Source of the DNA: a virus
Taxonomy: Duplodnaviria > Heunggongvirae > Uroviricota > Caudoviricetes
Length of the DNA stretch: 15,503 nt
Reading direction: 5' to 3' (one strand)
Virus record (IMG/VR): IMGVR_UViG_2579778894_000014
Location: 1 to 15,503 of that record
The translations under genes were made by a program, and so were the position numbers. Positions 826 to 15,405 of this stretch are shown piece after piece. The notes beneath the pieces were generated by a model. That model was given only the letters and a program-made list of their open reading frames with translations. It ran no database searches and was not told the origin of the DNA. Each line of letters begins with the position of its first letter. Position 1 is the stretch's first letter.

Positions 826-1350
826 TTACCGGGACTGTTCTATTTGTCGGACACCAGCCAACTGGTTATTCGCCTTCTCGATGGCAGCCAACAATGGGTT
901 AATCCACAGAACAGCCTGGCAATATGTCAACGTTCTGGTGGTAGTGGCACGATCACCGGCTGAGTCAATGTCCCCGGAATCGGCGTGCAATGCGCTGGCG
1001 CGTAAACGGTTCGCGTAGTTGAGCAACCCGACAGCAATATCAACAGGAACAGGGAAATCACAGTTCTTTTCACGGAGCAGAACCTCACGGTATTTGATGA
1101 CTGTCTTCTCGTGACCGATGTCGACCAGAGAATTTAATCGGCTTGCGTTTTCTGCTATCTGGTTAAAACGATTGAAGTTTAATGCCTGATTAGCTATCAC
1201 TTTCCCTTGATATTCAGCTTCACCTTCCGCTTTATCAGCCCGCAACTTTTCTGCCTGATACTTGCTGTGGTAATGGTTTGCAGACCAGACGAGCGCCCCA
1301 AAGGCAGAGAAGAAAAATGCCGCGATGACAATCTTATAAGTCAGCTTCAT
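826..1350 (-). CDS. Rz: Rz-like i-spanin (lysis protein)
   Basis: 174 aa with an N-terminal transmembrane segment (KIVIAAFFFSAFGALVW) followed by WSANHY, resembling the start of lambda Rz, then a charged/helical periplasmic region. Start codon overlaps the 3' end of the endolysin gene by 17 nt, and a lipoprotein ORF is embedded in the +1 frame, as in lambda. Confidence 0.75.
   Translation of the reverse strand: MKLTYKIVIAAFFFSAFGALVWSANHYHSKYQAEKLRADKAEGEAEYQGKVIANQALNFNRFNQIAENASRLNSLVDIGHEKTVIKYREVLLREKNCDFPVPVDIAVGLLNYANRLRASALHADSGDIDSAGDRATTTRTLTYCQAVLWINPLLAAIEKANNQLAGVRQIEQSR
927..1073 (-). CDS. Rz1: Rz1-like o-spanin (outer-membrane lipoprotein) embedded in +1 frame of Rz
   Basis: Not in the ORF track (under 60 aa). 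Manual translation of the minus strand from GTG at 1073 gives MKRTVISLFLLILLSGCSTTRTVYAPAHCTPIPGTLTQPVIVPLPPER (48 aa), ending at TGA 929-927. It has a basic n-region, hydrophobic core, lipobox LSGC and a Pro-rich mature part with a second Cys. GAGG lies 9 nt upstream. Start codon choice (GTG) is uncertain. Confidence 0.55.
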   Translation of the reverse strand: MKRTVISLFLLILLSGCSTTRTVYAPAHCTPIPGTLTQPVIVPLPPER

Positions 1351-1810
1351 TTACCACCCCACCAGCATCTTTAAACCTGGAAATCAGGTCACCGATTTTA
1401 TGTTCATACTGACCGTAACCTGCACCAGGTAACGACGCCCAGATATTGCTGCAACGGTCGATTGCCTGACGAATATCGCCACGGTCAATCATCGGTAAAG
1501 CGCCACGCTCTTTAATCTGCTGCAGCGCCACAGCGTCCTGACTTTCTGGCGAAAAATCTTTCAGGCCAAGCTGCTTACAGTAGGCATCCCACCAGCGTGA
1601 AAGAAGCTGATACCGGCCTGCGGCTGTTGATTTAAGCTTCGGGTTTAGCGTGACAAGTTTGCGAGGGTGATCGGAGTAATCAGTGAACAACTCACCTCCG
1701 ACGATAACGTCATAACCGTGATTACGTGTCGGTTGTCGCCCGTTATCCGTTCCTTCTGACCATGCCACCATATCCAGGAAAGCTTTACGTTGGGAATTTA
1801 GTGTCTGCAT
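1334..1810 (-). CDS. R: Endolysin, lambda R-type lytic transglycosylase
   Basis: 158 aa, the same length as lambda R and nearly identical to it as I recall the lambda sequence (QRKAFLDM.AWSEGTDNGRQ.TRNHGYDVIVGGELFTDYSDHPRKLVTLNPKLKST.AGRYQLLSRWWDAY.KQLGLKDFSP.SQDAVALQQIKERGALPMIDRGDIRQAIDRCSNIWASLPGAGYGQ). GGAG Shine-Dalgarno 7 nt upstream. Follows the holin gene with a 3-nt gap. Confidence 0.95.
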   Translation of the reverse strand: MQTLNSQRKAFLDMVAWSEGTDNGRQPTRNHGYDVIVGGELFTDYSDHPRKLVTLNPKLKSTAAGRYQLLSRWWDAYCKQLGLKDFSPESQDAVALQQIKERGALPMIDRGDIRQAIDRCSNIWASLPGAGYGQYEHKIGDLISRFKDAGGVVNEADL

Positions 1811-1813
1811 GAA

Positions 1814-2155
1814 TTACTCCTTAGAGCCACCAAACTTGTTACCGATTACTCGCATTGCAGCCCCACGAATAGCATCGACACCGATCAGCCCAACACCACC
1901 ACCAATGGCAACAGAAAGCGATTTAGGCCATCCGACATACTCAAGAGCGGATGCAAAAGTCAGCGTCAGAGCACCACAGAGCAAAATCTCAAGCGTTTTT
2001 CGTTTCCAGCCGCCGCCACCGCCAAAATAGGCAATGCGCAAGCCAGCCATAACAATTGACATAACCACTGCGCCCAACGGCGTATCTCCACGCCACCAAC
2101 TTTGTAAGAGTTCCAGTAAGTCAGGCCAGGAATGAGGAGCATTGTGCATTTTCAT
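1814..2155 (-). CDS. Holin with MKM dual-start motif
   Basis: The track ORF starts at 2173, but GGAGGT (complement of 2162-2167) lies 6 nt upstream of the ATG at 2155, and the protein then begins MKM with a second in-frame ATG at 2149, the same dual-start arrangement as lambda S. The product has hydrophobic TM segments, Gly-rich stretches and a charged C-terminus, and directly precedes the endolysin. The sequence is not lambda S itself. Confidence 0.75.
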   Translation of the reverse strand: MKMHNAPHSWPDLLELLQSWWRGDTPLGAVVMSIVMAGLRIAYFGGGGGWKRKTLEILLCGALTLTFASALEYVGWPKSLSVAIGGGVGLIGVDAIRGAAMRVIGNKFGGSKE

Positions 2156-2255
2156 ACTTCCCACCTCCGCCATTACGGGGTGTTGTTGAAAGGCGGGCCC
2201 TGCGTATACGCCCGTAGGATTGGGTTATGAGCCGTCCTTCGGTGGGCCCTGAATA

Positions 2256-3441: not shown

Positions 3442-3672
3442 TCAATACTCGTTGAATGTCAGGTGGCCGCTAACACTGACGTTTGGCCCGTCAGATAACA
3501 CAAGCTGGAAATTGTCGTCGCAAACAGAGCAGCCGAGGTCAATAACTACCGTTTTGTCGTGTTTATGCGCTCGCATGGCGACATCGCGAATAAACACGCT
3601 GTTACTAGCGCAGCGTGGGCAGGTAATTTCGTTATTTCCGTCGATATGATTTTTTAATCCTGAAACTTTCAT
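3442..3672 (-). CDS. Small zinc-ribbon protein (CxxC...CxxC), function unknown
   Basis: 76-aa ORF with GGAG SD 8 nt upstream of the ATG at 3672. Paired cysteine motifs CPRC and CSVC. Sits between the iteron array and Q. Confidence 0.6.
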   Translation of the reverse strand: MKVSGLKNHIDGNNEITCPRCASNSVFIRDVAMRAHKHDKTVVIDLGCSVCDDNFQLVLSDGPNVSVSGHLTFNEY

Positions 3673-3721
3673 GTTGTTTACTCCAGCTAGTTATTTGCAA
3701 ATATTTGCAAGTTAATTTCCG

Positions 3722-3987
3722 GGTGACGGCTAGGTGACGCGTAATTACATATCCGTCACCTGCTGCAAAGCGCGCCATATAAAGCCTGAAGATGTTTTAG
3801 GTGACAGGTGACGGTTGATTTTAGTTCTATATATATATAAGCGATCGTATAATACCTAAAATACACACTCTCGCGTATATAGTTTTAAATTCTGCCGTCA
3901 CCTGTCACCTTTAGCACATTCCCCATTGTTTTATATATACTTTTTAAGGTGACGCTTAAGCGTTTTGCCGTCACCTAGCCGTCACCT
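3722..3987. repeat. Mirror-symmetric iteron array (10 GGTGAC/GTCACC hexamers) flanking an AT-rich core; candidate replication origin
   Basis: GGTGAC at 3722, 3733, 3800, 3807, 3948; GTCACC at 3755, 3897, 3904, 3970, 3981. Outer pairs are spaced 11 bp, inner pairs 7 bp, and all positions are mirror-symmetric about ~3854. The outer arms are near-perfect inverted repeats (GGTGACGGCTAGGTGACG). The centre 3814-3896 is AT-rich with a TATATATATA run. TTGCAA boxes at 3695-3710 and 4002-4017 flank the array. It lies immediately 3' of the replication-protein gene. Confidence 0.6.
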
Positions 3988-3989
3988 TT

Positions 3990-6251
3990 TTACAATCCAG
4001 ATTGCAAAATTTCGCAAGATTTATATATTTCGCGCAATTCTTCGTTGCTGAAATCGTTATTTTTTACAAGAATCCAAATCCTATATACAAACCCGTCAAT
4101 TTTTACGCGTACGGGTTCCCGCTTTGTTCTTTCTTTCAAAATGCGAGTAATATGCTTCTGGTTAATTTCTACATCCATTCCTGCTTCTGCCAGTATTGCG
4201 TTAACAATTTGTTGATAAGTCATTGCTGGCACAGGCGGATTATCCAGGATTTCAATAAGAGCAGCCTCCACATCGCTCTTATTGCTTTCAATCATCAGAA
4301 GGCGTTCTTTCGTCTCGGGGGCGCGCTGCCAGTTAAAGCGAGACAGGTCAACGCCCATTAGATACCAGTACACCTGGGCGATAAAGTCGCTGTCGCTTAG
4401 CGCACCGTACAGGCTGGCGTAATGCTCTTCAGTTGCGGCGAAGTCAGGGCCCCCCAGCACAGCTATACGTCGGTCTTCCTCTGGCAGCGCCAGCGCATCA
4501 AAGTGGTTGGTGTAGAACAGAAAGCCGGTGTATATATCCATCGTTTTTTTGCTGCCATATTTGCGGTTCACTTCAAACCGTGGTTCTGTCAGCACGTCAC
4601 GGATCTTATCGTTCACCTCATACCGCTTATCGTTTTCGCGCACCTCGTCAATGGTGCATAGAAGTGTATTGTACAGATAGTCATGGAACTGGTTATCGCA
4701 CAGGATCTTCATGCGAGTACGAGCACAGTTCCACGGGCCAAGCACGCGCTCCATTAACTGACTGACCCATCCTCTGCCCGTACCATGTGCGGTAGCCACA
4801 TGCAGAATAGAAATCGGGCATCGACGCTCCGGACGCTGAACCATCCACCCCAGACGGGCGATGAAAAACTCGCGCTGCCAGGCATCAGGTACCAGATACG
4901 CCATATGATTAAGGAACGTGGACACCTTACTTGTATCCGCTGTACGTGGATGCTCAGGCATATAAAATTCGTTTATCTCAAACCGCCCGTCGAAACGCTC
5001 GATAATACGTCCCGCACCGGGCTTATAGCCTGTCGTCTCAGCAATCTTCTTATGCCGATGCTCTATCCACCGTTTGGTTGCGGGAGTTGGTTGTCCTTTC
5101 CCTTCTGGCGGGAACTGGTAAGGCGCCATCAGGTTTTTGAACGACTTCATATCCATCATGCACTGATATGGCGGTCGGCTAAGATCACATACCTGGTCAC
5201 CCTCGATGACGTAGATAAAGCGTTCCAGAAAATGAGCTGTCATATCTGTATTAATATCGGTAAATTCAGGCTTATCGCCATCTTCAGCCACCGTGAGATC
5301 TTCGAACAGGGATTGCGTATAGCCGTAGCCTTCCAGCCAGTCGGCATCAGTAAGCCCCGCATCGGTGTTGTGCATGCTTTTAAAATGTCCCTGTTCAAAT
5401 CCCCCCGTCCCTTTTGGGAAATACTTAATGGATGTTTCGCTGCAACCGTTGCTGTATTCTGACTCATCCCGAAACGGTTTCAGATTGCGGGAACCATCAG
5501 AGCTGACTGACAGAGTCCACCCGTTCGCGTCAAGCCAGTCGGCGACATCATCTGTCGCGGAAGGATCAACACAGGAAAGGTCACGCTGACGTCCTGCACC
5601 TGCGGTATAGCTGTCTTTCACGGGTAAGTTATCCGCCAGACGCTGCCACAGGCTTTCGAGCTGTTCAGATGTAATTTTCAGAGGTTCGCCGGGCAAACCG
5701 CTGTCCCACTGAATACGTTCGCCTGCCGGATGGGTACCACAAGCCACAAACTGCTGGCCCTTAGCGAGCAGCTCTATTTGTTTGTTTTCGCCTTCCAGGC
5801 GGTGACCACGTTTACGGTAGTCGCCATCAACAGCAATCAGGTACAGGCATTTATGACTGTCAGCCCGCCAGCGACGTGGCGGAAGTTCCCCCAGGCATGA
5901 TAGGATAATATTGCGTACGATCTCCTGCATCCCGGCGTCATTGATATCGCAGTCCAGAGCCACCACCCCGTCGCCAGTACGAACGCAAATACCGTAATCG
6001 GGTTCGTTCGACCACCGGGCAAAATCGTTTTCCGTAACAACATAGTTAGCCCAGTCGGGGATACCAACAACCTTACGTTGGCCATTGTAGCGACTGGGGG
6101 TTTTGCCGAAATTATGAGACAGCTTGCTATTAGGCGACAGTTCTGCACAGGGATTGGACACCACAGGTAAAAGCCTGTCTGTCATCCCCAACACCAGATC
6201 GAAGTAGAACCACTCATCGGGCGTAGCTCCCCATGGTTTGTTATCAGACAT
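3990..6251 (-). CDS. Replication protein, primase-like (primase-polymerase-type N-terminal region; P4 alpha-like size and context)
   Basis: 753-aa ORF whose start overlaps the stop of the Cro-like gene, suggesting translational coupling. The N-terminal region contains VVALDCDI (a DxD-type catalytic-like motif) and GTHPAG. hhhhDE-like TIDEV is present in the C-terminal half. I could not find a canonical Walker A GxxxxGK[ST], so helicase activity is not supported from sequence. Iteron array lies immediately downstream. Confidence 0.65.
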   Translation of the reverse strand: MSDNKPWGATPDEWFYFDLVLGMTDRLLPVVSNPCAELSPNSKLSHNFGKTPSRYNGQRKVVGIPDWANYVVTENDFARWSNEPDYGICVRTGDGVVALDCDINDAGMQEIVRNIILSCLGELPPRRWRADSHKCLYLIAVDGDYRKRGHRLEGENKQIELLAKGQQFVACGTHPAGERIQWDSGLPGEPLKITSEQLESLWQRLADNLPVKDSYTAGAGRQRDLSCVDPSATDDVADWLDANGWTLSVSSDGSRNLKPFRDESEYSNGCSETSIKYFPKGTGGFEQGHFKSMHNTDAGLTDADWLEGYGYTQSLFEDLTVAEDGDKPEFTDINTDMTAHFLERFIYVIEGDQVCDLSRPPYQCMMDMKSFKNLMAPYQFPPEGKGQPTPATKRWIEHRHKKIAETTGYKPGAGRIIERFDGRFEINEFYMPEHPRTADTSKVSTFLNHMAYLVPDAWQREFFIARLGWMVQRPERRCPISILHVATAHGTGRGWVSQLMERVLGPWNCARTRMKILCDNQFHDYLYNTLLCTIDEVRENDKRYEVNDKIRDVLTEPRFEVNRKYGSKKTMDIYTGFLFYTNHFDALALPEEDRRIAVLGGPDFAATEEHYASLYGALSDSDFIAQVYWYLMGVDLSRFNWQRAPETKERLLMIESNKSDVEAALIEILDNPPVPAMTYQQIVNAILAEAGMDVEINQKHITRILKERTKREPVRVKIDGFVYRIWILVKNNDFSNEELREIYKSCEILQSGL

Positions 6252-6596: not shown

Positions 6597-7271
6597 ATGA
6601 TTGATACTACCGATATCCTTTCTCAAAACATCAAGTACCTGATGGACAAAACCAAGATAAGCTCGATAACTGAGCTGGCACGTCGGTTACAGCTGAACCA
6701 ACCAACGCTACACAGGCTGGTATCAGGAGAGGTGAAAGATCCGAAATACGCAACGTTAAAGCAGATCGCCGACTACTTCCACGTGTCACCAATAGACCTG
6801 GCAGAAAGGAGCCTTCAAGAAATGGAGAAAGAGGACGCGACAGGTATAAAAACGTATATTTCTCTTAGGTTTAATAAAGTACCTGTTTTGGGAAACACTC
6901 AGCTAGGCGTTGGAGGACTTTGGAGCGACACCCAATATTCAGTAGGTAGCAGTGATGGTTTCATATACTGGCCGACAAAGGATGAAGATGCATACGCCCT
7001 GAAATGTGTTGGTGATTCAATGATGCCTAGAATCAAAGAGGGTGAGTTCGTAATCGTCGAACCCAACCACGACTACACTCCTGGTGATGAAGTACTTGTG
7101 GTTACCCGGGACGGTGAGGTCATGGTTAAAACCTTCTTGTTCGAACGCGATGGCCTGTTCCATCTAATATCTGTAAATGAAGATCATCCACCAGTCAGAG
7201 TACCACGCGAAAACATTGAAAAAATCCATTACGTGGCGGGGATCGCCAAATCCGCGCTACGCATGTACTAA
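6597..7271 (+). CDS. cI: CI-type prophage repressor (N-terminal HTH plus C-terminal LexA-like S24 peptidase domain)
   Basis: 224 aa. N-terminal HTH (ISSITELARRLQLNQPTLHRL). C-terminal CVGDSMMPRIKEGEFVIV with the GDSM serine nucleophile and a downstream VMVKTF lysine, typical of LexA/CI autocleaving repressors. Confidence 0.85.
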   Translation: MIDTTDILSQNIKYLMDKTKISSITELARRLQLNQPTLHRLVSGEVKDPKYATLKQIADYFHVSPIDLAERSLQEMEKEDATGIKTYISLRFNKVPVLGNTQLGVGGLWSDTQYSVGSSDGFIYWPTKDEDAYALKCVGDSMMPRIKEGEFVIVEPNHDYTPGDEVLVVTRDGEVMVKTFLFERDGLFHLISVNEDHPPVRVPRENIEKIHYVAGIAKSALRMY

Positions 7272-7384: not shown

Positions 7385-7420
7385 TACGATACCGCATAAT
7401 TAATGCATTTTCTAATACCA

Positions 7421-7432
7421 GCTCTTTAACAA
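7421..7432 (+). promoter_or_regulatory. boxA-like antitermination element in the early-left leader
   Basis: GCTCTTTAACAA matches the rrn/lambdoid boxA core (UGCUCUUUAACAA) as I recall it, about 30 nt downstream of the predicted transcription start. Confidence 0.45.
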
Positions 7433-7577
7433 ACAGAACCGCGTGACAGGTAAGCCGCAGTGCTCCTGGCAAAACGAAATAGCACCCGATGGGATCGAGG
7501 TAAGCGCCGAGTCCGTATGCGTACGGTAAGCGTAGAGGACAACACCGCGACGAACTGATAAGTCACGCAAGTTGAAA

Positions 7578-7606
7578 CGCCCCGATGATGGGGCGCTTAG
7601 TTCCTT
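7578..7606 (+). terminator. Hairpin with weak U-tract (possible leader terminator or pause site)
   Basis: CGCCCC-GATGAT-GGGGCG (6-bp stem) followed by CTTAGTTCCTTT. Confidence 0.3.
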
Positions 7607-7698
7607 TAACTCTGGGTGACCGGAAGGGTACCCATGCTTAAAGAAATTACTGGTTGTAAGGATCGTAATCCGTGATTGCCTTCCCCGGATTTTCATCT

Positions 7699-8217
7699 TC
7701 AGAAGGCAGTCGGGCCTCTAAAGCATTTCGGGTTGAACAGATAGGAAGCCCTACAGTACGAACAAACCATATTAACGACTCGCCCAAGGCCTGGCTTAGT
7801 AACCAGACCTTCCGCTTGCAATATAGATTTTCTCTTTTGCTCGTAGCAATTGGGACAAATATAAACCGGAGATTGGTCAGCATCTGCAGAAAGCTTGCTG
7901 CGATAGACCAGAGTACCCCGCATAGGCTGGTAAAGTTCATAGCTCGCCGCTTCAGCGGCCCAGTTCTCTTGCTTTACTTTCTCATTTTCCAGTTCAACAA
8001 TTTTCTCCTTAGCCGCAATCAGCAGCTCCTGAAGCGACATTTGCTGCATCTGAACATCCATTAGCTTATCGAGTAAGATGTGCGTCTTCTCTTTAACTGC
8101 ATAGTCGACAGTCAGATTCTGAATCTCTCTTGCTGCTCCAACCGCGCTTTTAATTGCTCCTCCCACACCGGATAACGATTCAGTTATCCGGGAAAGAATT
8201 CCTTTTTCTTCAGACAT
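7699..8217 (-). CDS. Hypothetical coiled-coil protein with C-terminal zinc-ribbon (CPNC...CSYC); cI-adjacent accessory gene
   Basis: 172-aa ORF on the strand opposite to the early-left transcript. Central heptad-like region (LQELLIAAKEKIVELENEKVKQENW) and C-terminal CxxC...CxxC. GAGAGA SD-like sequence upstream. Its promoter region carries two direct repeats ACTGTAGGGGT at 8234-8244 and 8268-8278. Confidence 0.65.
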   Translation of the reverse strand: MSEEKGILSRITESLSGVGGAIKSAVGAAREIQNLTVDYAVKEKTHILLDKLMDVQMQQMSLQELLIAAKEKIVELENEKVKQENWAAEAASYELYQPMRGTLVYRSKLSADADQSPVYICPNCYEQKRKSILQAEGLVTKPGLGRVVNMVCSYCRASYLFNPKCFRGPTAF

Positions 8218-8420: not shown

Positions 8421-8591
8421 ATGAAAAAAGGAATACAACCGATGAAACCTGAACACATCCATCGACTGACGGGGCGCGATGTTCTCCGTTATCGCCGTAA
8501 AAACTTCGATTTGATGACCGGTCTGGCCGTTGCCACTGCGCTCGGTCTGATCATCACTTTCATTCTCCTTGTAGCGAGGACCACAGTATGA
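8421..8591 (+). CDS. Small membrane protein (single C-terminal TM helix)
   Basis: ATG at 8421 (the track used GTG at 8409); an alternative in-frame ATG at 8442 is preceded by AAGGA. C-terminal hydrophobic segment LAVATALGLIITFILLVA. Stop overlaps the next ATG (ATGA), suggesting coupling. Confidence 0.5.
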   Translation: MKKGIQPMKPEHIHRLTGRDVLRYRRKNFDLMTGLAVATALGLIITFILLVARTTV

Positions 8592-9490
8592 GTTTAGAAA
8601 CCAGTCTAGAACTTAATAATCAACTTCTGGCACAACATAATGCGCTGCTTGAACGTCTTATCCGCACAATGGCATCAGGTATTGTTATGCATCCTGACAC
8701 GATTTCACGAGTGCAGGAATGTCGGGATACAGCAACTGAAACTGAAAATATGTCAGCGGCAATGACACTGGATGATCTGGAGTTCAGCGACGTTATCGCA
8801 CTGGCTGGTTTCTACCCGGTAGCCACCCCTATCACAGAAGATATGCTGCAACGTGCTGTTGCCTACCGTGATGCTGAAGGCGATAAACGAGTAGTTCAGA
8901 TTGATGCTCTCGACAGCGCATTGCAGGGCGTCAAACGAGCCAGGGCGCTGCTTAAACCTGCTCTCCTGGACCTGTCCCGTAACATCCTTAAGTTCTGGGA
9001 CGACCTGCCAACCATCGGCGAGCGACGTGCTTTTGCCGAGCAGCTACTTGATGCACCTGCAGATGGGCGTGATGAAGTTAAGCCGAAAAAGGCCAGTAAC
9101 AAAGATGGAGAACGCACGGGGCCGTTTTACGTCAAAAATGTATCCGGCACAGCAGCCAGTGAACTCCACACCTTACGCAAGTTGAACGAGATGCTTAAAA
9201 AAGGCCATATCGAGATCAACCGTGTTGAGTACCTTCAGCTGCAGGAAGAATTTGCACGCAGAGACGCAGCAAATTCCAGCCAGAATAATGACGCCAAAGA
9301 TGACCATACAATTGATTTCGCGGCACTACGCAAACAAGCTGAAGGGTTGATCCTCCAGTTAGCAAAAGGGGGCTACCGGGCAGAAGCTATTGCAATTCTG
9401 GAAAAACAGGGAGCCAGGAAACTTGGTGAAGTAACGGATGAAAATCTCGCTGAAGTAATCACCCTGGCTGAAAAAGCACTGGAGGGTTAA
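8588..9490 (+). CDS. Hypothetical protein
   Basis: 300-aa ORF, translationally coupled to the flanking genes. Acidic, helical-looking composition. No family recognised. Confidence 0.7.
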
Positions 9491-9492
9491 TC

Positions 9493-10794
9493 ATGCCAGA
9501 CGTTCACGCACAACTTTCTCCATCATCAGCGCATCGATGGATGCGCTGCCCAGGAAGTCTGGCGCTGGAGGCCACACAACCGGATAAAGAAACAACTTTT
9601 GCAATCGAGGGCACTACAGCGCACGCGCTTGCTGAAAAAGTTCTACGAAACAGGCAAAGCCACCCGGAACACTACGCCGGATGCAATGTTTCTATGTTTC
9701 TCGGCTCATACCCCCTTCGCGAAAATCCTGATGATACATCTGGCCCACAGGTGGATGATGAAATGGTCGAAGCCGTCGGCCGGTATGTTGATACGGTCTG
9801 GACTCTTGCACAGAATAATGAACTATTGGTTGAACAACGTGTTGATTTCTCACATATAACGGGTGTGGAAGAATCTTTCGGAACTGCCGACGGCATAATC
9901 ATCGCTGGTAACGAATTACAAATCCACGACCTGAAATATGGCAAAGGCGTCCGCATTGATGCAGAACAAAATGAGCAACTACAACTGTATGCTCTGGGTG
10001 CTCTCGAACAATTCAGCATGCTGTATGACTTTGAGACTGTAAGATTATTTATTCACCAGCCAAGGCTCAACCACGTTTCAGAATGGTCGTTAACCGTACA
10101 GGAACTTCAGTCTTTCGGTGAACGGGCACTGGAGGCCGCAACCAGTGCGATCCTTGTTCTCAATATTGCTGAATGCGAAGGCATTGAGACACTACCGCTG
10201 GAAAACTTCATACCTGGAGAAAAACAGTGCCGCTTCTGTAAAGCAAAAGCTATTTGCACTGCCCAGAAAATGCAGCATTTACAAACAGCGGCCAGCGATT
10301 TTGAAGATCTGACAAAGCCTGTCAGCGAAATAATCACCAATGCCAGCGCACGTGTACCTCTGTTAACCATTGAGCAGCTTGCAGAGATCTATAGCCAGGC
10401 CGACTTTATTGAATCCTGGCTAAAGGCAGTACGGGACCGGGTTCACGATGAACTCAATGCCGGACATCCGGTACCGGGGTTTAAACTGGTAACAGGAAAA
10501 CAAGGTAACCGGGCCTGGAGTGATGAAGAGGCAGCTCGCGCACTTCTGAAGGACCAGTTCAGGTACAAAACTGAAGAAGTATTCGACTTTAAACTTATTA
10601 GTCCCACAAAAGCCGAAAAACTTATCAAAAAGGCCAGTCCGCGCCGTTGGTCAAAAGTCGAGGCACTGATAACACGAGCTGATGGAAAACCCACCGTCGT
10701 TCCCGAGTCAGACCCACGCCCCGCACTCAATATCAACCCTGTAAATGATTTCGACGACGTATCCGACGATACGCTAACCGCAGACCTCATCTGA
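9493..10794 (+). CDS. PD-(D/E)XK nuclease, DUF2800-like (Cas4-like phage exonuclease)
   Basis: 433 aa. N-terminal [14 protein letters not shown] is characteristic of DUF2800 proteins as I recall them. [23 protein letters not shown] fits a D...D-x-K nuclease core, and the [10 protein letters not shown] cysteine cluster is Cas4-like. GGAGGG SD upstream. Confidence 0.75.
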
Positions 10795-10809
10795 TTTAAG
10801 GAAATACCC

Positions 10810-11358
10810 ATGAAACTGAAGCTGAACAATGTTCGTCTGGCCTTCCCGTCTCTGTTTGAAGCTAAAACTGTAAACGGCGAAGGCGATCCGCGTTTCTCCG
10901 CAGTATTTTTAATGTCTCCCAAACACCCACAACTGGAAGAAATCCGTAAAGCTATGAAGCAGGTAGCGAAGGAAAAATGGGGAGAGAAGTGGGAGCCCAT
11001 TTATAACCAGCTGGAGAAAAAACTCAATCTGTGCCTGCATGATGGTGATGAAAAAGCAGAGTATGAAGGCTTCCCCGGTAATTTCTTCCTGAATGCTGCT
11101 AACAAAGCGCGCCCAGCTGTTCTTGATCGCGATCGTTCGCCACTTATTCAGGCTGACGGACGTCCCTATGCAGGGTGCTATGTAAACGCCGTTATCGATA
11201 TCTGGGCACAGGACAATAATTTCGGTAAACGCATTAATGCCTCACTCGGCGGAGTCCAGTTCCTGCGAGACGGCGATGCATTCGCTGGCGGCGGAGTGGC
11301 AAGCGCTGACGATTTCGACGATATCAGCGAAGGTGCTGATGCTGAAGCACTAATTTAA
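10810..11358 (+). CDS. DUF2815-like phage protein (proposed ssDNA-binding protein)
   Basis: 182 aa. N-terminus MKLKLNNVRLAFPSLFEAK resembles DUF2815 family members, which typically pair with DUF2800 and a family A polymerase. Acidic C-terminal tail DDFDDISEGADAEALI. AAGGAA SD upstream. Confidence 0.7.
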   Translation: MKLKLNNVRLAFPSLFEAKTVNGEGDPRFSAVFLMSPKHPQLEEIRKAMKQVAKEKWGEKWEPIYNQLEKKLNLCLHDGDEKAEYEGFPGNFFLNAANKARPAVLDRDRSPLIQADGRPYAGCYVNAVIDIWAQDNNFGKRINASLGGVQFLRDGDAFAGGGVASADDFDDISEGADAEALI

Positions 11359-11373
11359 CCCTACTTCATAGAC

Positions 11374-11392
11374 GCCCGGTTAAACACCGGGC
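11374..11392. other. Perfect 7-bp stem-loop between convergent genes (possible factor-independent terminator lacking a U-tract)
   Basis: GCCCGGT-TAAAC-ACCGGGC, located between the DUF2815 stop (11358) and the stop of the reverse-oriented membrane gene (11411). Confidence 0.3.
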
Positions 11393-11410
11393 TACTGATT
11401 AGGCGTATAA

Positions 11411-12040
11411 TCACTCAGGAATCTTAATCTTTCTCAATTCTTTATTTAGTTCACAGATCTTTTTCTTAGACGGGAAAGTATCATACATCCAAAAACCAAC
11501 AGTCTCTAAAACTATTATCATAACCATATACACAAGATAATTTAAAAGGCCTTCATTTTGCCCTATGGAAATAATGCAGATAATAGAAAAAAGGGTAAAC
11601 AGCACAAAACACAGAAAGGAAAACAGACGACTAATAATAAATAAAAAACCTGAAAAATCAACATTAATAAAAAACACTCCGTTATCTTTCTCTATATAAT
11701 TCTGAAGCTTAATCAACTGATTTATATACTGTCTTTTTTCTAATCTATTGCAAATGTAAATAACATCTCTTCGGTTATAAGATGATTGCAATTTCAGCGC
11801 ATCACGAATAATTTTATCATTTATTCTTTTTTCTATGGCACTCTTATCCTCCTCATCCAGATAACGTTCATACTTAACTAAATATAAAATTAACTTCTTA
11901 ACATATTTAGGCTCTTTATACTTATAATTAAAAATGATCTTTCTTATCCAGACTCCCATAACAATCAAACATGAAAAAATATATCCAGCTATTTTCTCCA
12001 GATGCTCTGTATGGTCAATCAAGTATTGGATCATATGCAT
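11411..12040 (-). CDS. Membrane protein of unknown function in an AT-rich inserted segment (moron)
   Basis: 209-aa ORF on the opposite strand to the flanking replication genes. The segment ~11400-12080 is conspicuously AT-rich (roughly 30% GC by eye) against ~50-55% in the neighbours. Predicted N-terminal TM (IAGYIFSCLIVMGVWI), a Lys/Glu-rich middle region and 2 C-terminal TM helices (FLFIISRLFSFLCFVLFTLFSIICIISI; LVYMVMIIVLETVGFWM). Confidence 0.65.
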   Translation of the reverse strand: MHMIQYLIDHTEHLEKIAGYIFSCLIVMGVWIRKIIFNYKYKEPKYVKKLILYLVKYERYLDEEDKSAIEKRINDKIIRDALKLQSSYNRRDVIYICNRLEKRQYINQLIKLQNYIEKDNGVFFINVDFSGFLFIISRLFSFLCFVLFTLFSIICIISIGQNEGLLNYLVYMVMIIVLETVGFWMYDTFPSKKKICELNKELRKIKIPE

Positions 12041-12086
12041 AATTAATCTTTTAATCAGTTAATAGAATAAAAACCAAGGTAAACAC

Positions 12087-14150
12087 ATGTCCAATATACT
12101 ATGGGGCGACCTGGAAACCTATTGCGAAATCCCTATTACGAACGGTACCCATGCGTATGCCGAAGGCGTTGAAGTGATGCTTTTCGCATGGGCTATCAAC
12201 GACGGGCCAGTAAACGTGTGGGATATCACTGCCGGTGGTGGTATTCCACACGGCTTATACGAAGCAATCGCAGACCCTGAAACCCTGCTTTATTTCCATA
12301 ACTCTCACTTCGACCGCACCGTTCTGCGTTATGCAATGCCGCGCCTGGCACCGCCAGTCGAACGTTGGCGCGACACAATGGTGCAGGCGCTGGCGCACGG
12401 CCTCCCGGGGTCTCTGGGGGAACTCTGCGAAATACTCGGCGTCCCGCAAGACAAAGCGAAGGACAAAGAAGGTAAAGCGCTGATCCAGCTGTTCTGTAAG
12501 CCACGCCCGAAAAACAGCAAACTGCGTCGGGCCACCAGTAAAACCCACCCGGAAGAATGGCGGCGCTTTGTTGCTTACGCCGGACTGGATATCGAGGCAA
12601 TGCGCGAAGTCTATAAACGTCTGCCGAAGTGGAATTATCAGGGGACAGAACTGGCGCTCTGGCATCGTGATCAGCAGATCAACGACCGGGGCGTCTGCAT
12701 GGACATTCAACTCGCGCGCGCTGCGATCGAAGCGGTAGACCAGGAGCAAAAGCGCCTGGCAAAGCGTACACAGGAAATGACTGATGGCGAAGTGCAGGCA
12801 GCCACACAACGAGACGCGTTGATTAAGCACATTGTTGAATCCTACGGTGTGGAGCTACCAGACATGCAACGCAGTACTCTGGAACGTCGTATTGCCGACC
12901 CCGATTTACCATCTGCCGTGAAAGAACTGCTGGCTATCCGCCTGCAGGCCAGTACTACCAGCACCAGTAAATACAAGGCACTGATGAAAGGCGTAAGCCA
13001 CGACGGGCGCTTACGCGGTACGCTACAGTTCTGCGGGGCGTCACGTACCGGTCGTTGGGCCGGACGGCTATTCCAGCCCCAGAACCTTCCCCGCCCTTCA
13101 CTAAAACAGGAACAAATAGACGAAGGCATCGAAGCACTGAAAGCCGGATGTGCAGACCTGCTGTTTGACAATATCATGGAACTAACCAGTTCAGCGTTAC
13201 GTGGCTGCATTATCGCGCCAACAGGCAAAAAGCTGGTGGTAAGTGACTTGTCGAACATTGAAGGCCGTATGCTGGCATGGCTGGCGGGAGAAGAATGGAA
13301 ACTGAATGCATTCAGAGAGTACGACGCCGGAACGGGTCCGGACTTATATAAACTGGCGTATGCAAAAGCTTTCGATATTGCACCAGATGATGTTGATAAA
13401 CACATGCGTCAGATCGGTAAAGTCATGGAACTCGGTCTGGGTTATGGTGGTGGTGTGTCGGCCTTCATCACTTTTGCACTGGTTTACGGTCTCGATCTCG
13501 ACGAGCTGGCGAACGCCGCACTACCAAACATTCCCCGCGATGTTATCCGCGAGGCGAAAAGCTGGTACGACGAATCGGTTAAACGCAAGTCAACCTACGG
13601 GCTTTCTGAACGGGTATTTATCGCCTGCGACTCACTTAAACGTCTCTGGCGCCGGGCGCATCCCGCGACCTGTGATTTCTGGTACGAACTGGAGCGCACC
13701 GTCCGCACTGCAATCGCCACACCGCAAAAAACATTGTATTGCGGTTATCTTAAAATCCGCCGCGATGGCGCGTGGCTGCGCATACAGCTACCATCCGGAC
13801 GCGCTGTATGCTACCCGTCTCCGGTTATCGAAAAAGGGAATATCACCTACATGGGGGTTAACTCTTATTCGCGTAAATGGCAACGACTCAAAACCTACGG
13901 CGGAAAGCTGGTGGAGAACATCACCCAGGCGGCCGCCCGCGACATTCTGGCCGGAAACATGCCGCTTATCGAAGATGCCGGTTACAGCATTGTGCTGACG
14001 GTACACGACGAGGTGATCACCGAAGCACCTGACACAGAAGATTTCAACGATAAAGCGCTTTCCGCGCTTCTCTCCACTGACCCCGAATGGGCGCCCGATA
14101 TCCCACTGAACGCTGGCGGTTTTGAGGCGTACCACTACAAAAAAGATTGA
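12087..14150 (+). CDS. Family A DNA polymerase (PolA-like) with N-terminal 3'-5' exonuclease domain
   Basis: 687 aa. Exo motif WGDLETY near the N-terminus. Polymerase motif A ([20 protein letters not shown]), motif B ([16 protein letters not shown]) and motif C (VHDEV). Confidence 0.9.
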
Positions 14151-14214
14151 TATAACTCACCTTATCGAGCTATGGCGACATGCTGAATTCGAGTAAATTA
14201 AAGGAACAATACTT

Positions 14215-14976
14215 ATGCAGGAACTAACTGAAATGCCGATCACCTATCCATACCCGAGAGAAACTTTTCCTGACTTTTTGAGGGAGTGTGGGTTCACCAA
14301 TTTTTCCCACGAACAGCGTGAGACTTGTGACTGCTATCGTTTAACGAATGGCGTAATTGTTAACCTTTACACCACCCGGACCATTCAGTTTCAAGGTAAC
14401 CCTCAAGAACGTCCCAATGTTGAAACTGCAATAATGACCCATTTAGGAACGCCGCCCACGGCAACACCACTAGCCGTAGAACAGCCATCTGAGCTCCCCA
14501 AAAAGATATTCATTGTTCACGGCCATGACCATACTGCAAAGGAGCAACTTGAGCTAATCCTTCATAAACTTGGATTACCAGACCATTTCATTTTGCAGAA
14601 TACGGGAGGGACTGGACTCACCATTATTGAAGAGCTTGAACGTGAAATTGGGCAAGGACAAACTGCTACCCGTTTCGGGATTGTTCTTTTGACACCTGAT
14701 GATATGGGATACTCAAAGCGCGCCGGTGAAGCAGAAATCCAACCCCGCGCAAGACAGAACGTTGTACTCGAGATGGGTATGCTTCTTTCGTCCTTAGGGC
14801 GCAGCAATGTAGCAATCCTTCAGAAACAGCACCTAGAACAGCCTTCTGATGCTAACGGGATTTTGTATCTGAATTTCAACGACCATGTACGTGAAACAGT
14901 TCCTCGTCTAGTGCAACGGTTACAAAATTCTGGTTTCGAATTTACACAAGCTCAAATAGCTAACGCTTCCTCGTAA
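14215..14976 (+). CDS. Two-domain protein: unknown N-terminal domain plus C-terminal TIR-like Rossmannoid domain (CAP12/PycTIR-type family)
   Basis: 253-aa ORF with AAGGAA SD upstream; last gene of the operon before a strong terminator. The C-terminal ~150 aa contains KKIFIVHGHDH, GGTGLTIIEELE, FGIVLLTPDD and NVVLEMGMLLSSLG, which I recognise as the pattern of prokaryotic TIR-like nucleotide-binding domains (conserved Glu followed by Gly). The N-terminal ~95 aa has no recognised family. Domain assignment is from memory, not a search. Confidence 0.6.
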   Translation: MQELTEMPITYPYPRETFPDFLRECGFTNFSHEQRETCDCYRLTNGVIVNLYTTRTIQFQGNPQERPNVETAIMTHLGTPPTATPLAVEQPSELPKKIFIVHGHDHTAKEQLELILHKLGLPDHFILQNTGGTGLTIIEELEREIGQGQTATRFGIVLLTPDDMGYSKRAGEAEIQPRARQNVVLEMGMLLSSLGRSNVAILQKQHLEQPSDANGILYLNFNDHVRETVPRLVQRLQNSGFEFTQAQIANASS

Positions 14977-15023: not shown

Positions 15024-15210
15024 TGGGAATAAAAACCCTATGTCATTTAAATACCGGGACAGTCCGCTTTATTACCGGACTGTGCGGGAGGCTTTGCACC
15101 TTGAACAGTCCGGCGGGTACGACCGGGCGATGCAGGTCTGGGCCAAAGCGAACGTCGGTTTGATTTTTGTCTGATGCAGAACATGCGCGAAAAGCGTAAG
15201 GAGGTGGACG

Positions 15211-15405
15211 ATGTCTAATATCGATAATAAGGGTTGGGGGTTCCCCGCTCTGTCAAAAAAAGCACATTTCTTTAATTCGGGGGAAGCCATATCACTATGC
15301 GGAAAATGGATGTTCATAGGTATCAGGATTGATGAATGGCATGACCATCCTGAGAACTGCGCTATCTGCATGAAGAAACGCAAAAAGCAGGAAGGCGAAA
15401 GCTAA
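15211..15405 (+). CDS. Small Cys/His-rich protein (putative zinc-binding), function unknown
   Basis: 64-aa ORF with a near-consensus SD TAAGGAGGT 6 nt upstream of the ATG. Contains C...H-x-H...C-x2-C (CGKW...WHDHPENCAICMKK) and a basic C-terminus. Preferred over the overlapping minus-strand 103-aa ORF. Confidence 0.55.
   Translation: MSNIDNKGWGFPALSKKAHFFNSGEAISLCGKWMFIGIRIDEWHDHPENCAICMKKRKKQEGES

What the first reader, a model, noticed from the sequence alone, without database searches (positions are those of the whole stretch)
11360..12086. AT-rich, reverse-oriented membrane-protein gene inserted between the DUF2815 and polA genes
A ~700-bp segment of markedly lower GC interrupts an otherwise co-directional, tightly packed replication operon. 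It encodes a 209-aa protein on the opposite strand with one N-terminal and two C-terminal predicted TM helices and a Lys/Glu-rich soluble middle. Compositional discontinuity plus inverted orientation is the classic signature of a moron, and small membrane proteins in this configuration are often superinfection-exclusion or abortive-infection factors. No family recognised.
Basis: seen in the sequence. Interest (0 to 1): 0.65.

Follow-up and report, generated by a model that had tools for sequence, protein, structure and literature searches.

The report
Swappable prophage membrane-protein gene cassette
An AT-rich, backwards-facing gene for a three-helix inner-membrane protein fills a swappable slot in the replication operon of an E. 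coli prophage; it belongs to a small uncharacterised family that looks like, but is not demonstrably related to, the phage P22 exclusion protein SieA, and it probably protects the lysogen from other phages, though that is untested.

Summary
Window 11359-12086 is a 728-bp cassette of 30% GC (flanks 49±3.5%, z=-5.6). It carries one reverse-strand ORF (11411-12040, 209 aa) with one N-terminal and two C-terminal TM helices.

The moron reading is strongly supported. In related prophages, homology stops exactly at the DUF2815 stop codon and resumes at the polA ATG. The slot is empty (74-80 bp) in at least 11 relatives and holds at least 20 other cargo types, including a SIR2 protein (PADLOC candidate PDC-S25), DUF4145, SPFH, BRO-N and Nmad5.

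The protein is real. It belongs to a small Enterobacterales family (25-43% identity, about 210 aa, dN/dS about 0.07) with no Pfam, PADLOC, PDB or fold match. It always occurs as a single gene in accessory slots of unrelated mobile elements. Three other alleles only 21-27% identical to ours fill this same slot.

Predicted topology is N-out/C-in, with the middle domain and the most conserved motif in the cytoplasm. P22 SieA has the same layout, composition and setting, but homology was tested and not found.

Function is inferred: a prophage-expressed inner-membrane anti-phage factor (entry block or abortive effector). It is a solid candidate but not a surprising kind of thing.

The parts
11359..12086 (.). 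Variable cassette: the whole spacer between the DUF2815 stop codon and the polA start codon (728 bp, GC 0.299)
   Evidence: Alignments with four other cargo variants lose identity right after the TAA at 11356-11358 and regain it at the ATG at 12087. Spacer lengths in about 80 related loci run from 74 to 2556 bp. The cassette alone is found in exactly 67 E. coli genomes, once each and always here.
11411..12040 (-). ORF of 209 aa: inner-membrane protein of an uncharacterised family, with TM1 at residues 17-33, a cytoplasmic helical domain at 34-128, TM2 at 129-157 and TM3 at 165-186, followed by a basic tail
   Evidence: Searches give the ORF. It matches PHROG 10579 at E 2.9e-108. The family alignment is A5. 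The AF2 model has pLDDT 80.8. Charge distribution gives the topology. Purifying selection is shown.
11942..11992 (-). Codons for TM1 (residues 17-33); it is preceded by an acidic 16-residue N-terminus, so it is predicted to insert N-out
   Evidence: Hydropathy. Across 25 family members the N-terminal segment has net charge -1.1 and the domain that follows has +7.1. The AF2 model has a helix at residues 11-37.
11483..11656 (-). Codons for the TM2-loop-TM3 helical hairpin (residues 129-186); the periplasmic loop is about 5 residues, and Glu176 sits inside TM3 in the main subfamily
11429..11479 (-). Codons for the cytoplasmic tail after TM3 (residues 188-204, PSKKKICELNKELRK); this is the most conserved part of the family, with I195, N199, L202 and K204
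   Evidence: N199 and L202 are invariant, and I195 and K204 are conserved in at least 96% of the 25 sequences. It resembles the end of the SieA motif FxRYPxEAxxFNK(E)F.
11374..11392 (+). Hairpin GCCCGGT-TAAAC-ACCGGGC, retained from the ancestral intergenic terminator; the T-run that follows it at empty sites is missing here
   Evidence: The fold has z = -3.9. The same hairpin followed by TGTTTTG is present at empty sites and in the BRO cassette, and the SIR2 and BRO cassettes share the same left 35 nt. The scan found no terminator-like site in 11000-12500.
12064..12093 (-). Promoter-like site for the reverse ORF (TGGACA, 18 nt, TATTCT); the -35 element overlaps the first codons of polA
   Evidence: This is a consensus scan only. 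It found 5 sites against 3.6 expected by chance, so the evidence is weak.
12076..12079 (+). Shine-Dalgarno-like AAGG for polA, supplied by the cassette itself
   Evidence: Read directly from the sequence. Each cargo type carries its own different sequence just upstream of the polA ATG.
10810..11358 (+). Left conserved flank: DUF2815/Enc34-type ssDNA-binding protein gene
   Evidence: Pfam PF10991 at E 7.6e-44. It is 92-100% identical across the 80 loci that have different cargo.
12087..14150 (+). Right conserved flank: family A DNA polymerase gene
   Evidence: Pfam PF00476 and PHROG 17.

Best explanation
Shown: window 11359-12086 is one allele of a highly polymorphic accessory slot (a moron hotspot) between the ssDNA-binding protein gene and the DNA polymerase gene of an inducible E. 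coli prophage. Cassettes are exchanged by recombination in the conserved flanking genes. There are no flanking repeats and no recombinase. Each cassette brings its own ribosome-binding site for polA.

Predicted: the cargo is a genuine, selectively maintained gene. Its product is a 209-aa inner-membrane protein with N-out/C-in topology. One anchor helix is followed by a basic helical cytoplasmic domain of about 95 residues ending in a beta-hairpin. A TM2-TM3 hairpin follows, and then a conserved basic juxtamembrane tail.

Inferred: the gene is transcribed from its own promoter in the lysogen, while the surrounding lytic operon is repressed. The protein protects the lysogen against incoming phages at the cytoplasmic face of the inner membrane. 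I think the SieA-like mode is slightly more likely, in which the protein interferes with the DNA-delivery conduit or with a host membrane factor that conduit needs. The alternative is an abortive-infection mode: the cytoplasmic domain senses a phage product and the TM hairpins oligomerise to depolarise the membrane.

Inferred: on induction, rightward transcription of the replication operon runs antisense through the gene and would shut it off.
For: Accessory status:
- Cassette boundaries are sharp.
- Empty sites exist and there are at least 21 content types in about 80 loci.
- 67 of 159 genomes carry this cassette, always in this slot and never on a plasmid.
- No flanking repeats were found.

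Real gene:
- A family of about 210-aa proteins with conserved layout extends down to 25% identity.
- dN/dS is about 0.07 between Xenorhabdus orthologues. E. coli variants show 10 nonsynonymous to 7 synonymous changes, against a neutral ratio of 4.2:1.
- The cassette is full-length in 66 of 67 genomes.

Single-gene mobile module. Homologues sit alone in:
- a P2-like prophage, in the S/V slot
- a lambdoid prophage beside GAPS4, methylase-HNH and dGTPase-like genes
- a RecT phage
- a TraG-bearing element
- Xenorhabdus islets

Arms-race signature: besides the window's own allele, three further alleles of the same family (cargo types 5, 9 and 18) fill this slot in prophages whose DUF2815 protein is 93-100% identical to the window's. 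They are only 21-22% identical to ours and 25-68% to one another.

Defence neighbourhood:
- SIR2/PDC-S25 (E 4e-158) and DUF4145 are alternative cargoes.
- TIR/PDC-S35 (E 7e-109) sits in the next variable slot.

Prior: 6 of 8 randomly chosen unknown cargoes of P4 hotspots defended against phages (PMC13586616).

Topology: charges follow the positive-inside rule, and the AF2 model has pLDDT 80.8.

SieA analogy: SieA has the same 1+2 TM layout. Its gene is AT-rich (0.337 against 0.471), reversed directly after a forward operon gene, has same-slot sequence types about 25% identical, and has its best-conserved motif on the cytoplasmic side after TM3.
Against: - No experiment or transcript data exist. 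The promoter call is a weak consensus match and no terminator was found for the reverse gene.
- There is no hit to any PADLOC model, no homology to SieA or SieB, and no informative fold match.
- The protein is not listed in the DefensePredictor supplements.
- The slot also holds cargo that is not obviously defensive (Nmad5, BRO-N), so location alone is not proof.
- Periplasmic exposure is tiny, which limits any contact with incoming phage parts outside the membrane.
- Stable vertical inheritance next to thrS across Xenorhabdus species would also fit a host membrane function unrelated to phages.
- The family occurs in unrelated phage types, which argues against a SieA-style narrow specificity.
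Confidence: 0.55

Rival explanations
1. It is an abortive-infection membrane effector rather than an entry blocker. The cytoplasmic domain detects a phage protein or a replication intermediate. TM2-TM3 hairpins from several subunits then form a pore that collapses membrane potential and kills the infected cell before phage release.
For: - The large, conserved cytoplasmic domain and tail could act as a sensor.
- A conserved Glu lies inside TM3 in the main subfamily.
- The family occurs in unrelated prophages, a conjugative element and chromosomal islets, which suggests a generalist function not tied to one injection machine.
- Its reversed position inside an early lytic operon would silence it during the carrier's own lytic growth, which matters mainly for a toxic effector.
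- In known systems, TM proteins are usually taken to be suicide effectors (PMC9122126).
Against: - No homology was found to RexB-like, CBASS, Pycsar or other TM effectors in PADLOC.
- The TM3 Glu is absent from the 199-aa subfamily.
- There is no evidence for oligomerisation.
Confidence: 0.25
2. It is an accessory membrane protein with a role unrelated to phage defence. Examples are modulating host envelope physiology, acting as an addiction or toxin-like element that stabilises the mobile element, or excluding conjugative DNA.
For: - It is conserved at one chromosomal site, upstream of thrS, in at least six Xenorhabdus species under strong purifying selection and without any prophage context.
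- One homologue lies near a TraG_N gene.
- The slot also carries non-defence-looking cargo.
- Persistent AT-richness would make it a target of H-NS silencing, which is typical of many kinds of horizontally acquired genes (general knowledge).
Against: - No partner antitoxin or second gene is conserved with it.
- The homologue near TraG_N is not in the traS position and is on the opposite strand. The Pfam TraS match is a single member at E 0.1, which is chance level.
- Extreme allelic divergence within one slot of near-identical prophages is more typical of conflict genes.
Confidence: 0.17
3. It works in the phage's own lytic cycle, for example as a holin-like or antiholin lysis timer, or as a membrane anchor for the replication complex.
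For: - It has three TM helices with N-out/C-in topology and a basic C-terminal tail, which are also features of class I holins (general knowledge).
- It lies inside the replication module.
Against: - Relatives with an empty slot or with unrelated cargo keep the same replication and lysis genes.
- The prophage already has a lambda-family holin, an endolysin and a lysis protein elsewhere (window 826-2173).
- A 95-residue cytoplasmic domain between TM1 and TM2 is not holin-like.
- No holin Pfam family matches.
- Homologues exist outside phages.
- It is oriented against the lytic transcript.
Confidence: 0.03

Closest known systems
P22 SieA (superinfection exclusion protein A; Leavitt et al. 2024, PMC10883804)
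   Same: - Both are single-gene morons encoding a small inner-membrane protein with one N-terminal TM, a charged cytoplasmic middle, two C-terminal TMs and a short basic cytoplasmic tail.
- Both genes are AT-rich relative to the phage: 0.337 against 0.471 for sieA, 0.289 against 0.487 here.
- Both lie on the reverse strand directly after a forward operon gene.
- Both have several same-slot sequence types only about 25% identical to each other.
- In both, the best-conserved motif is on the cytoplasmic side after the last TM and ends in N-K-E-(F/L).
   Different: - No detectable homology: hhalign gives 0.3% probability against P22 SieA, 0.7% against type B, and 1.3% against a multi-type SieA profile.
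- The middle domain is about twice as long here.
- The proline-to-asparagine spacing in the tail motif differs by two residues.
- SieA is confined to P22-like prophages between genes 16 and 9 and acts only on P22-like phages. This family is spread over unrelated elements.
- SieA's function is demonstrated by experiment. This protein's function is not.
[quoted passage not shown] 2022, PMC9122126; PMC13586616)
   Same: A fixed position between conserved genes of a temperate element holds many alternative cargoes. These include SIR2, TIR and TM proteins and many genes of unknown function, and they are swapped rather than decayed.
   Different: - The element is a different phage family, with an Enc34-type replication module and integration next to yfhL.
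- The slot lies inside a co-directional replication operon, so each cargo must supply the downstream gene's translation signals.
- As far as my searches went, this hotspot has not been described.
Classical morons (Hendrix/Juhala concept; for example P2 orf30, lambda rexB, HK97 gp15)
   Same: It is an extra gene between two genes that are adjacent in relatives. It has deviant base composition and is non-essential for the phage. A family member sits in the same S/V slot that holds the non-essential, reversed orf30 in P2.
   Different: - Its own promoter and terminator are not demonstrated.
- P2 orf30 is not a homologue (hhalign probability 1%).
- RexB has four TMs and needs RexA, and HK97 gp15 has one TM (from memory, not tested here).
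PHROG 10579
   Same: The protein matches the profile over its full length at E 2.9e-108.
   Different: The PHROG has no known function. Its profile starts at residue 28 of our protein. Its members therefore appear to be annotated from an internal Met and to lack TM1, although the N-terminus is conserved across the wider family.

Membership tests
Moron / hotspot cargo | The gene is present between two genes that are adjacent in related phages | tested here: met
   Empty 74-80-bp sites occur in at least 11 related loci, and at least 20 alternative cargoes occur at the same position.
Moron / hotspot cargo | Base composition differs from the surrounding genome | tested here: met
   GC is 0.289 against 0.486 ± 0.035, z = -5.6.
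Moron / hotspot cargo | It has its own promoter and terminator and is expressed from the repressed prophage | tested here: inconclusive
   There is one weak promoter-like match at 12093-12064 on the - strand and no terminator-like site. No expression data are available.
SieA family | Sequence homology to SieA types A, B or C | tested here: not met
   hhalign gives probability 0.3%, 0.7% and 1.3%.
SieA family | Inner-membrane protein with three TM helices and a cytoplasmic C-terminal conserved motif FxRYPxEAxxFNK | tested here: inconclusive
   The predicted 1+2 TM layout and cytoplasmic tail are the same. Only the end of the motif is shared (P ... hydrophobic-N-K-E-F/L), and the spacing differs by 2 residues.
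SieA family | Located between the gene 16 and gene 9 homologues of a P22-like prophage | tested here: not met
   This gene lies between the DUF2815 gene and polA of an unrelated prophage.
SieA family | Blocks DNA injection by superinfecting phage | not testable with these tools
   This needs plating-efficiency and DNA-entry assays.
SieB / Rex-type abortive systems | Sequence homology to SieB | tested here: not met
   hhalign gives probability 0.1%.
Known or candidate defence systems in PADLOC-DB 2.0 | Match to any of the 5027 PADLOC models | tested here: not met
   There are no hits for this protein or for the 199-aa and 223-aa alleles.
Holins (class I) | Match to a holin family, position in the lysis cassette, and short loops between TM helices | tested here: not met
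   No Pfam holin family matches. The lysis cassette lies elsewhere. The cytoplasmic domain between TM1 and TM2 is 95 residues.
CorA-type 2-TM-GxN channels | Conserved GxN motif at the end of the first helix of the TM hairpin, and a specific fold match | tested here: not met
PHROG 10579 | Profile match | tested here: met
   E 2.9e-108 over residues 28-209 against profile positions 1-182 of 182. The PHROG's function is unknown.

The most novel reading that the evidence does not exclude
The protein founds a new family of single-gene inner-membrane anti-phage factors. It is a structural analogue, or an undetectably distant relative, of SieA. It is carried by unrelated prophages, conjugative elements and chromosomal islets of Enterobacterales, and it diversifies rapidly within one slot. 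That slot would be a previously undescribed defence hotspot embedded inside a phage replication operon, where each cargo must also supply translation signals for the polymerase gene.
Probability: 0.4. Interest if true: 0.6.

Novelty: new variant of a known kind. Interest (0 to 1): 0.45.

Why it matters
If the protein does exclude or abort phages, it adds a compact single-gene membrane system. Its natural alleles (21-27% identical to ours, same slot, same phage backbone) form a ready-made panel for mapping specificity determinants.

The slot itself is a new place to look for defence and counter-defence genes in E. coli prophages. It lies between the Enc34-type ssDNA-binding protein gene and the polymerase gene, and has empty, SIR2, DUF4145, SPFH, Nmad5, BRO and several small-TM-protein states. 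A second variable slot after polA holds a TIR gene.

The close architectural match to SieA without detectable homology raises a testable question: is '1+2 TM plus a basic juxtamembrane tail' a recurrent solution for guarding the inner membrane against incoming DNA?

The kind of thing, a prophage moron that is probably protective, is familiar, so this is useful rather than surprising.

Tried and rejected
- **Spurious ORF in AT-rich DNA.** Rejected. There is a conserved family down to 25% identity with the same length and layout, dN/dS is about 0.07, and the cassette is full-length in 66 of 67 genomes.
- **Homology to SieA.** The layout and tail motif looked promising. I built a SieA profile from P22 (type A), E. 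coli HS (type B) and IMG/VR variants. hhalign gave 0.3-1.3% probability, so homology is not supported.
- **Homology to SieB or P2 orf30.** hhalign gave 0.1% and 1%.
- **CorA-like GxN channel.** The motif is not conserved.
- **Transposon or integron-like insertion.** There are no flanking direct or inverted repeats beyond AT-rich chance matches, and no recombinase.
- **Known RNA element in the AT-rich segment.** No Rfam match at E ≤ 1.
- **Published characterisation.** There are no papers for the phage names or the accession. The protein is not in the DefensePredictor supplements. Brenes & Laub 2025 is not held in the library.
- **Technical limits.** The single-sequence AF2 model was too poor to use (pLDDT 55). 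The genome-contig scan with the family alignment failed because no stretch was conserved enough.
Full report
**1. What is there**

The window is part of an inducible E. coli prophage. In strain IAI1 the same sequence lies next to yfhL and ends in a tyrosine integrase. It has also been deposited as phages vB_EcoM-689R2, -611R5 and -606R2.

Genes 8588-14976 form a tightly packed + strand replication module:
- an unknown 300-aa protein
- a DUF2800/PD-(D/E)XK nuclease
- a DUF2815/Enc34-type ssDNA-binding protein
- a family A DNA polymerase
- a TIR-domain protein

Between the ssDNA-binding protein gene (stop codon at 11356-11358) and polA (ATG at 12087) lie 728 bp of 29.9% GC. This segment contains one ORF, 11411-12040 on the - strand, of 209 aa with 28.9% GC and GC3 of 31%. 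Every other ORF in the window is 45-54% GC. All other 630-bp windows average 48.6 ± 3.5% with a minimum of 37.8%, giving z = -5.6.

**2. It is an accessory cassette in a hotspot**

Of 5426 complete E. coli genomes, 159 carry this replication module. Only 67 of them carry this cassette. The cassette searched on its own finds the same 67 genomes, once each, never elsewhere and never on a plasmid. It is full-length in 66 of the 67.

Alignment with four other variants shows that identity ends at the DUF2815 stop codon and resumes at the polA start codon.

I fetched 80 IMG/VR contigs whose DUF2815 protein is 92-100% identical and measured the spacer in each. There are at least 21 content types.
- **Empty sites.** These are 74-80 bp at 58-63% GC, in at least 11 loci. 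They consist of a terminator-like hairpin followed by TGTTTTG, a second small inverted repeat, and the polA ribosome-binding site.
- **Filled sites.** These include:
  - Nmad5 alone
  - Nmad5 plus an 89-aa two-TM protein
  - Nmad5 plus a 229-aa soluble protein
  - BRO-N
  - a 500-aa SIR2 protein matching PADLOC candidate PDC-S25 at E 4e-158
  - a DUF4145 protein
  - an SPFH/Band 7 lipoprotein
  - several reverse-strand, AT-rich proteins of 166-174 aa with one N-terminal TM

Our cassette, the SIR2 cassette and the BRO cassette share the first ~35 nt, including the hairpin, and diverge right after its stem. The T-run is lost in ours. No terminator-like site remains on either strand, so read-through from the ssDNA-binding protein gene into polA is plausible.

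No flanking repeats or recombinase are present. The simplest reading is that cassettes are exchanged by homologous recombination within the conserved flanks.

Each cargo supplies its own sequence immediately upstream of the polA ATG. Here that is AAGG at 12076-12079.

**3. The protein is real and belongs to a small, unnamed family**

The word-indexed search of 5.8 billion proteins found only near-identical copies. Exhaustive phmmer against 1.8 billion representatives found ten proteins, down to 25% identity, nearly all 209-218 aa long.

Profile searches added Xenorhabdus proteins and a 199-aa subfamily from E. coli, Enterobacter and Klebsiella. All are annotated as hypothetical.

The 199-aa protein that fills this same slot in strain 13E0725 is a member. 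hhalign gives 96.6% probability, E 6.6e-10, over 190 aligned columns at 18% identity. An HMM of the family also detects a 223-aa member in this slot in L076 (E 1.6e-25), and the 199-aa type combined with BRO in L051.

The four cargo types that carry a family member are our type 2 plus types 5, 9 and 18. Our allele is 21-22% identical to each of the other three. The 223-aa allele is 25-27% identical to the two 199-aa alleles, which are 68% identical to each other. All four lie on the reverse strand in these loci. The DUF2815 protein of the loci that carry them is 93-100% identical to the window's.

Selection is purifying. dN/dS is about 0.07 between Xenorhabdus orthologues, although dS is saturated. 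Variants of the E. coli allele show 10 nonsynonymous and 7 synonymous changes, against a neutral expectation of 4.2:1.

There is no match in Pfam, NCBIfam, PADLOC or PDB sequences. The only named match is PHROG 10579, of unknown function.

**4. Context elsewhere**

The family member is always a lone gene with no conserved partner. It is found in:
- a P2-like prophage of accession CP003244, between gpS and gpV. This is the slot that holds the non-essential, reversed orf30 in P2 itself. orf30 is not a homologue.
- a lambdoid prophage, just upstream of the antiterminator Q gene and beside GAPS4-type nuclease, methylase-HNH and HD/dGTPase-like genes
- a phage contig, reversed between a PAPS-reductase-like gene and recT
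- an 87-kb contig with TraG_N
- a Xenorhabdus island with Tn3, HicA and a Tad2-like gene
- the same chromosomal site, upstream of thrS-infC, in several Xenorhabdus species

The gene is 28-32% GC in eight of nine contexts, whatever the GC of the host (41-55%). Low GC is therefore a maintained property of the family and not only a sign of recent import.

**5. Structure and topology**

With the 25-sequence alignment, AlphaFold2 gives mean pLDDT 80.8 and pTM 0.60. The model has these elements:
- a short N-terminal helix
- TM1 (residues 11-37)
- four helices and a beta-hairpin (residues 43-125)
- TM2 (residues 132-160)
- TM3 (residues 165-188)
- a terminal helix (residues 192-202)

Net charges were averaged over the 25 family members:

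| Segment | Net charge |
|---|---|
| N-terminus | -1.1 |
| Middle domain | +7.1 |
| TM2-TM3 loop (about 5 residues) | -0.6 |
| C-terminal tail | +2.8 |

By the positive-inside rule this gives an N-out/C-in topology, with the middle domain and the tail in the cytoplasm.

The most conserved positions are in the tail: I195, N199, L202 and K204. Next come R90 and I125 in the cytoplasmic domain. A Glu inside TM3 is conserved in the main subfamily only.

Fold searches returned only generic helical bundles.

**6. Comparison with SieA**

[quoted passage not shown] It exists as three types about 25% identical to each other in the same genomic position. Its best-conserved motif, FxRYPxEAxxFNK, is on the cytoplasmic side (PMC10883804).

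I fetched it and found the same build:
- TM1 at about 8-30, a charged middle, TM2 at about 82-107, TM3 at about 117-145
- the tail GRYPGEANGFNKEFIKTIK
- gene GC of 0.337 against 0.471 for the genome
- reverse orientation, 22 bp after the forward gene 16

Our tail, FPSKKKICELNKELRKIK, shares the hydrophobic-N-K-E-(F/L)-x-K ending, which covers our family's invariant positions.

Homology could not be shown. hhalign of the family profile gives 0.3% probability against P22 SieA, 0.7% against the type B protein of E. coli HS, and 1.3% against a multi-type SieA alignment I assembled from viral contigs. SieB is also unrelated.

So the protein resembles SieA in architecture and setting, but I do not file it as a SieA family member.

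**7. Mechanism**

Shown or strongly supported:
- It is an accessory cassette in a recombinational hotspot.
- It is a genuine, conserved gene.

Predicted: it encodes a membrane protein with the topology above.

Inferred: it is expressed in the lysogen and protects against other phages at the inner membrane. The grounds are:
- the hotspot's other cargoes
- the neighbouring TIR/PDC-S35 gene, which is itself absent in some relatives
- the extreme allelic divergence in one slot
- the lone-gene mobility across unrelated elements
- the SieA analogy
- the published finding that six of eight randomly chosen unknown cargoes of P4 hotspots defend against phages (PMC13586616)

Whether it blocks entry or aborts infection cannot be decided from sequence.
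- For an entry block: the SieA-like build.
- For a more general sensor-effector: the spread across unrelated phage types, the large cytoplasmic domain, the TM3 Glu, and an orientation that would silence it during the carrier's own lytic growth.

I give about 0.55 to 'anti-phage membrane factor' overall and split that roughly evenly between the two modes. I give about 0.17 to a function unrelated to defence, and very little to a role in the phage's own lytic cycle.

**8. Novelty and score**

The kind of thing, a prophage moron in a hotspot that probably mediates exclusion, is well known. The following appear to be new within the limits of the searches I could run:
- the protein family, which is uncharacterised
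- the SieA-like architecture without detectable homology
- this particular hotspot inside a replication operon

It is a good experimental candidate but not a surprise. Interest is 0.45.

Noticed in passing
window 14215-14976 (+): A TIR-domain protein directly after polA matches PADLOC candidate PDC-S35 (E 6.8e-109) and Pfam CAP12-PCTIR_TIR. It is absent in relatives L003 and L005, where the ANR-family regulator gene follows polA directly. This looks like a second variable slot in the same operon.
   Followed up: partly
L086, L087, L070 and L084 (right end of the slot, just before the polA ATG): In the cassettes that carry reverse-strand N-terminal-TM proteins, the two divergent start codons are only about 22 nt apart. 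They are separated by a near-palindrome (CTCCTAAGG / CCTTAGGAG). It reads as a Shine-Dalgarno sequence on both strands: AGGAG for the reverse ORF and AAGG for polA.
   Followed up: no
L080 (SPFH cargo), L060 (Nmad5 only), L067: Forward-oriented cargoes are bracketed by two copies of the CCCGGC...GCCGGG terminator-like hairpin. The complete 'empty-site' sequence is retained at their right end. The hairpin may mark the recombination or insertion point.
   Followed up: partly
window 11411-12040 compared with PHROG 10579: The PHROG profile begins at residue 28 of the protein. Its members therefore seem to be annotated from an internal Met, losing TM1. The N-terminal motif Y-x-x-(D/E)-H-x-E and TM1 are nevertheless conserved in distant family members.
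   Followed up: partly
window 7412-8217 (-): Two reverse-strand ORFs (94 aa with no family match; 172 aa matching PHROG 1244, unknown function) sit between the LexA-like repressor gene (6597-7271) and the start of the + strand replication operon. IAI1 annotates a slightly different 174-aa protein there, so this may be another accessory region.
   Followed up: no
window 3600-4350 and 2250-2550: There are further dips in GC to 0.38-0.40. They cover the 3' end of the primase/VapE-like gene (3990-6251, - strand) and the intergenic DNA downstream of it, and a region between the lysis genes and the antiterminator gene.
   Followed up: no
L014 1-7743: The lambdoid prophage that carries homologue P0007 has a run of defence-type genes just upstream of it: a GAPS4-type PD-(D/E)XK protein, a DNA methylase with an HNH protein, an HD/dGTPase-like protein, and an unknown 424-aa protein.
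   Followed up: no
L006-L008 (Xenorhabdus chromosomes): A family member is fixed at one chromosomal site, between an SLT/cupin gene and thrS-infC-rpmI-rplT-pheST, in several Xenorhabdus species. It is still about 30% GC against about 41% in the flanks, and no prophage genes are nearby.
   Followed up: partly
L001 24241-24419 (IAI1), corresponding to window ~15040-15220: RefSeq marks the ANR-family regulator gene downstream of the TIR gene as frameshifted in IAI1.
   Followed up: no
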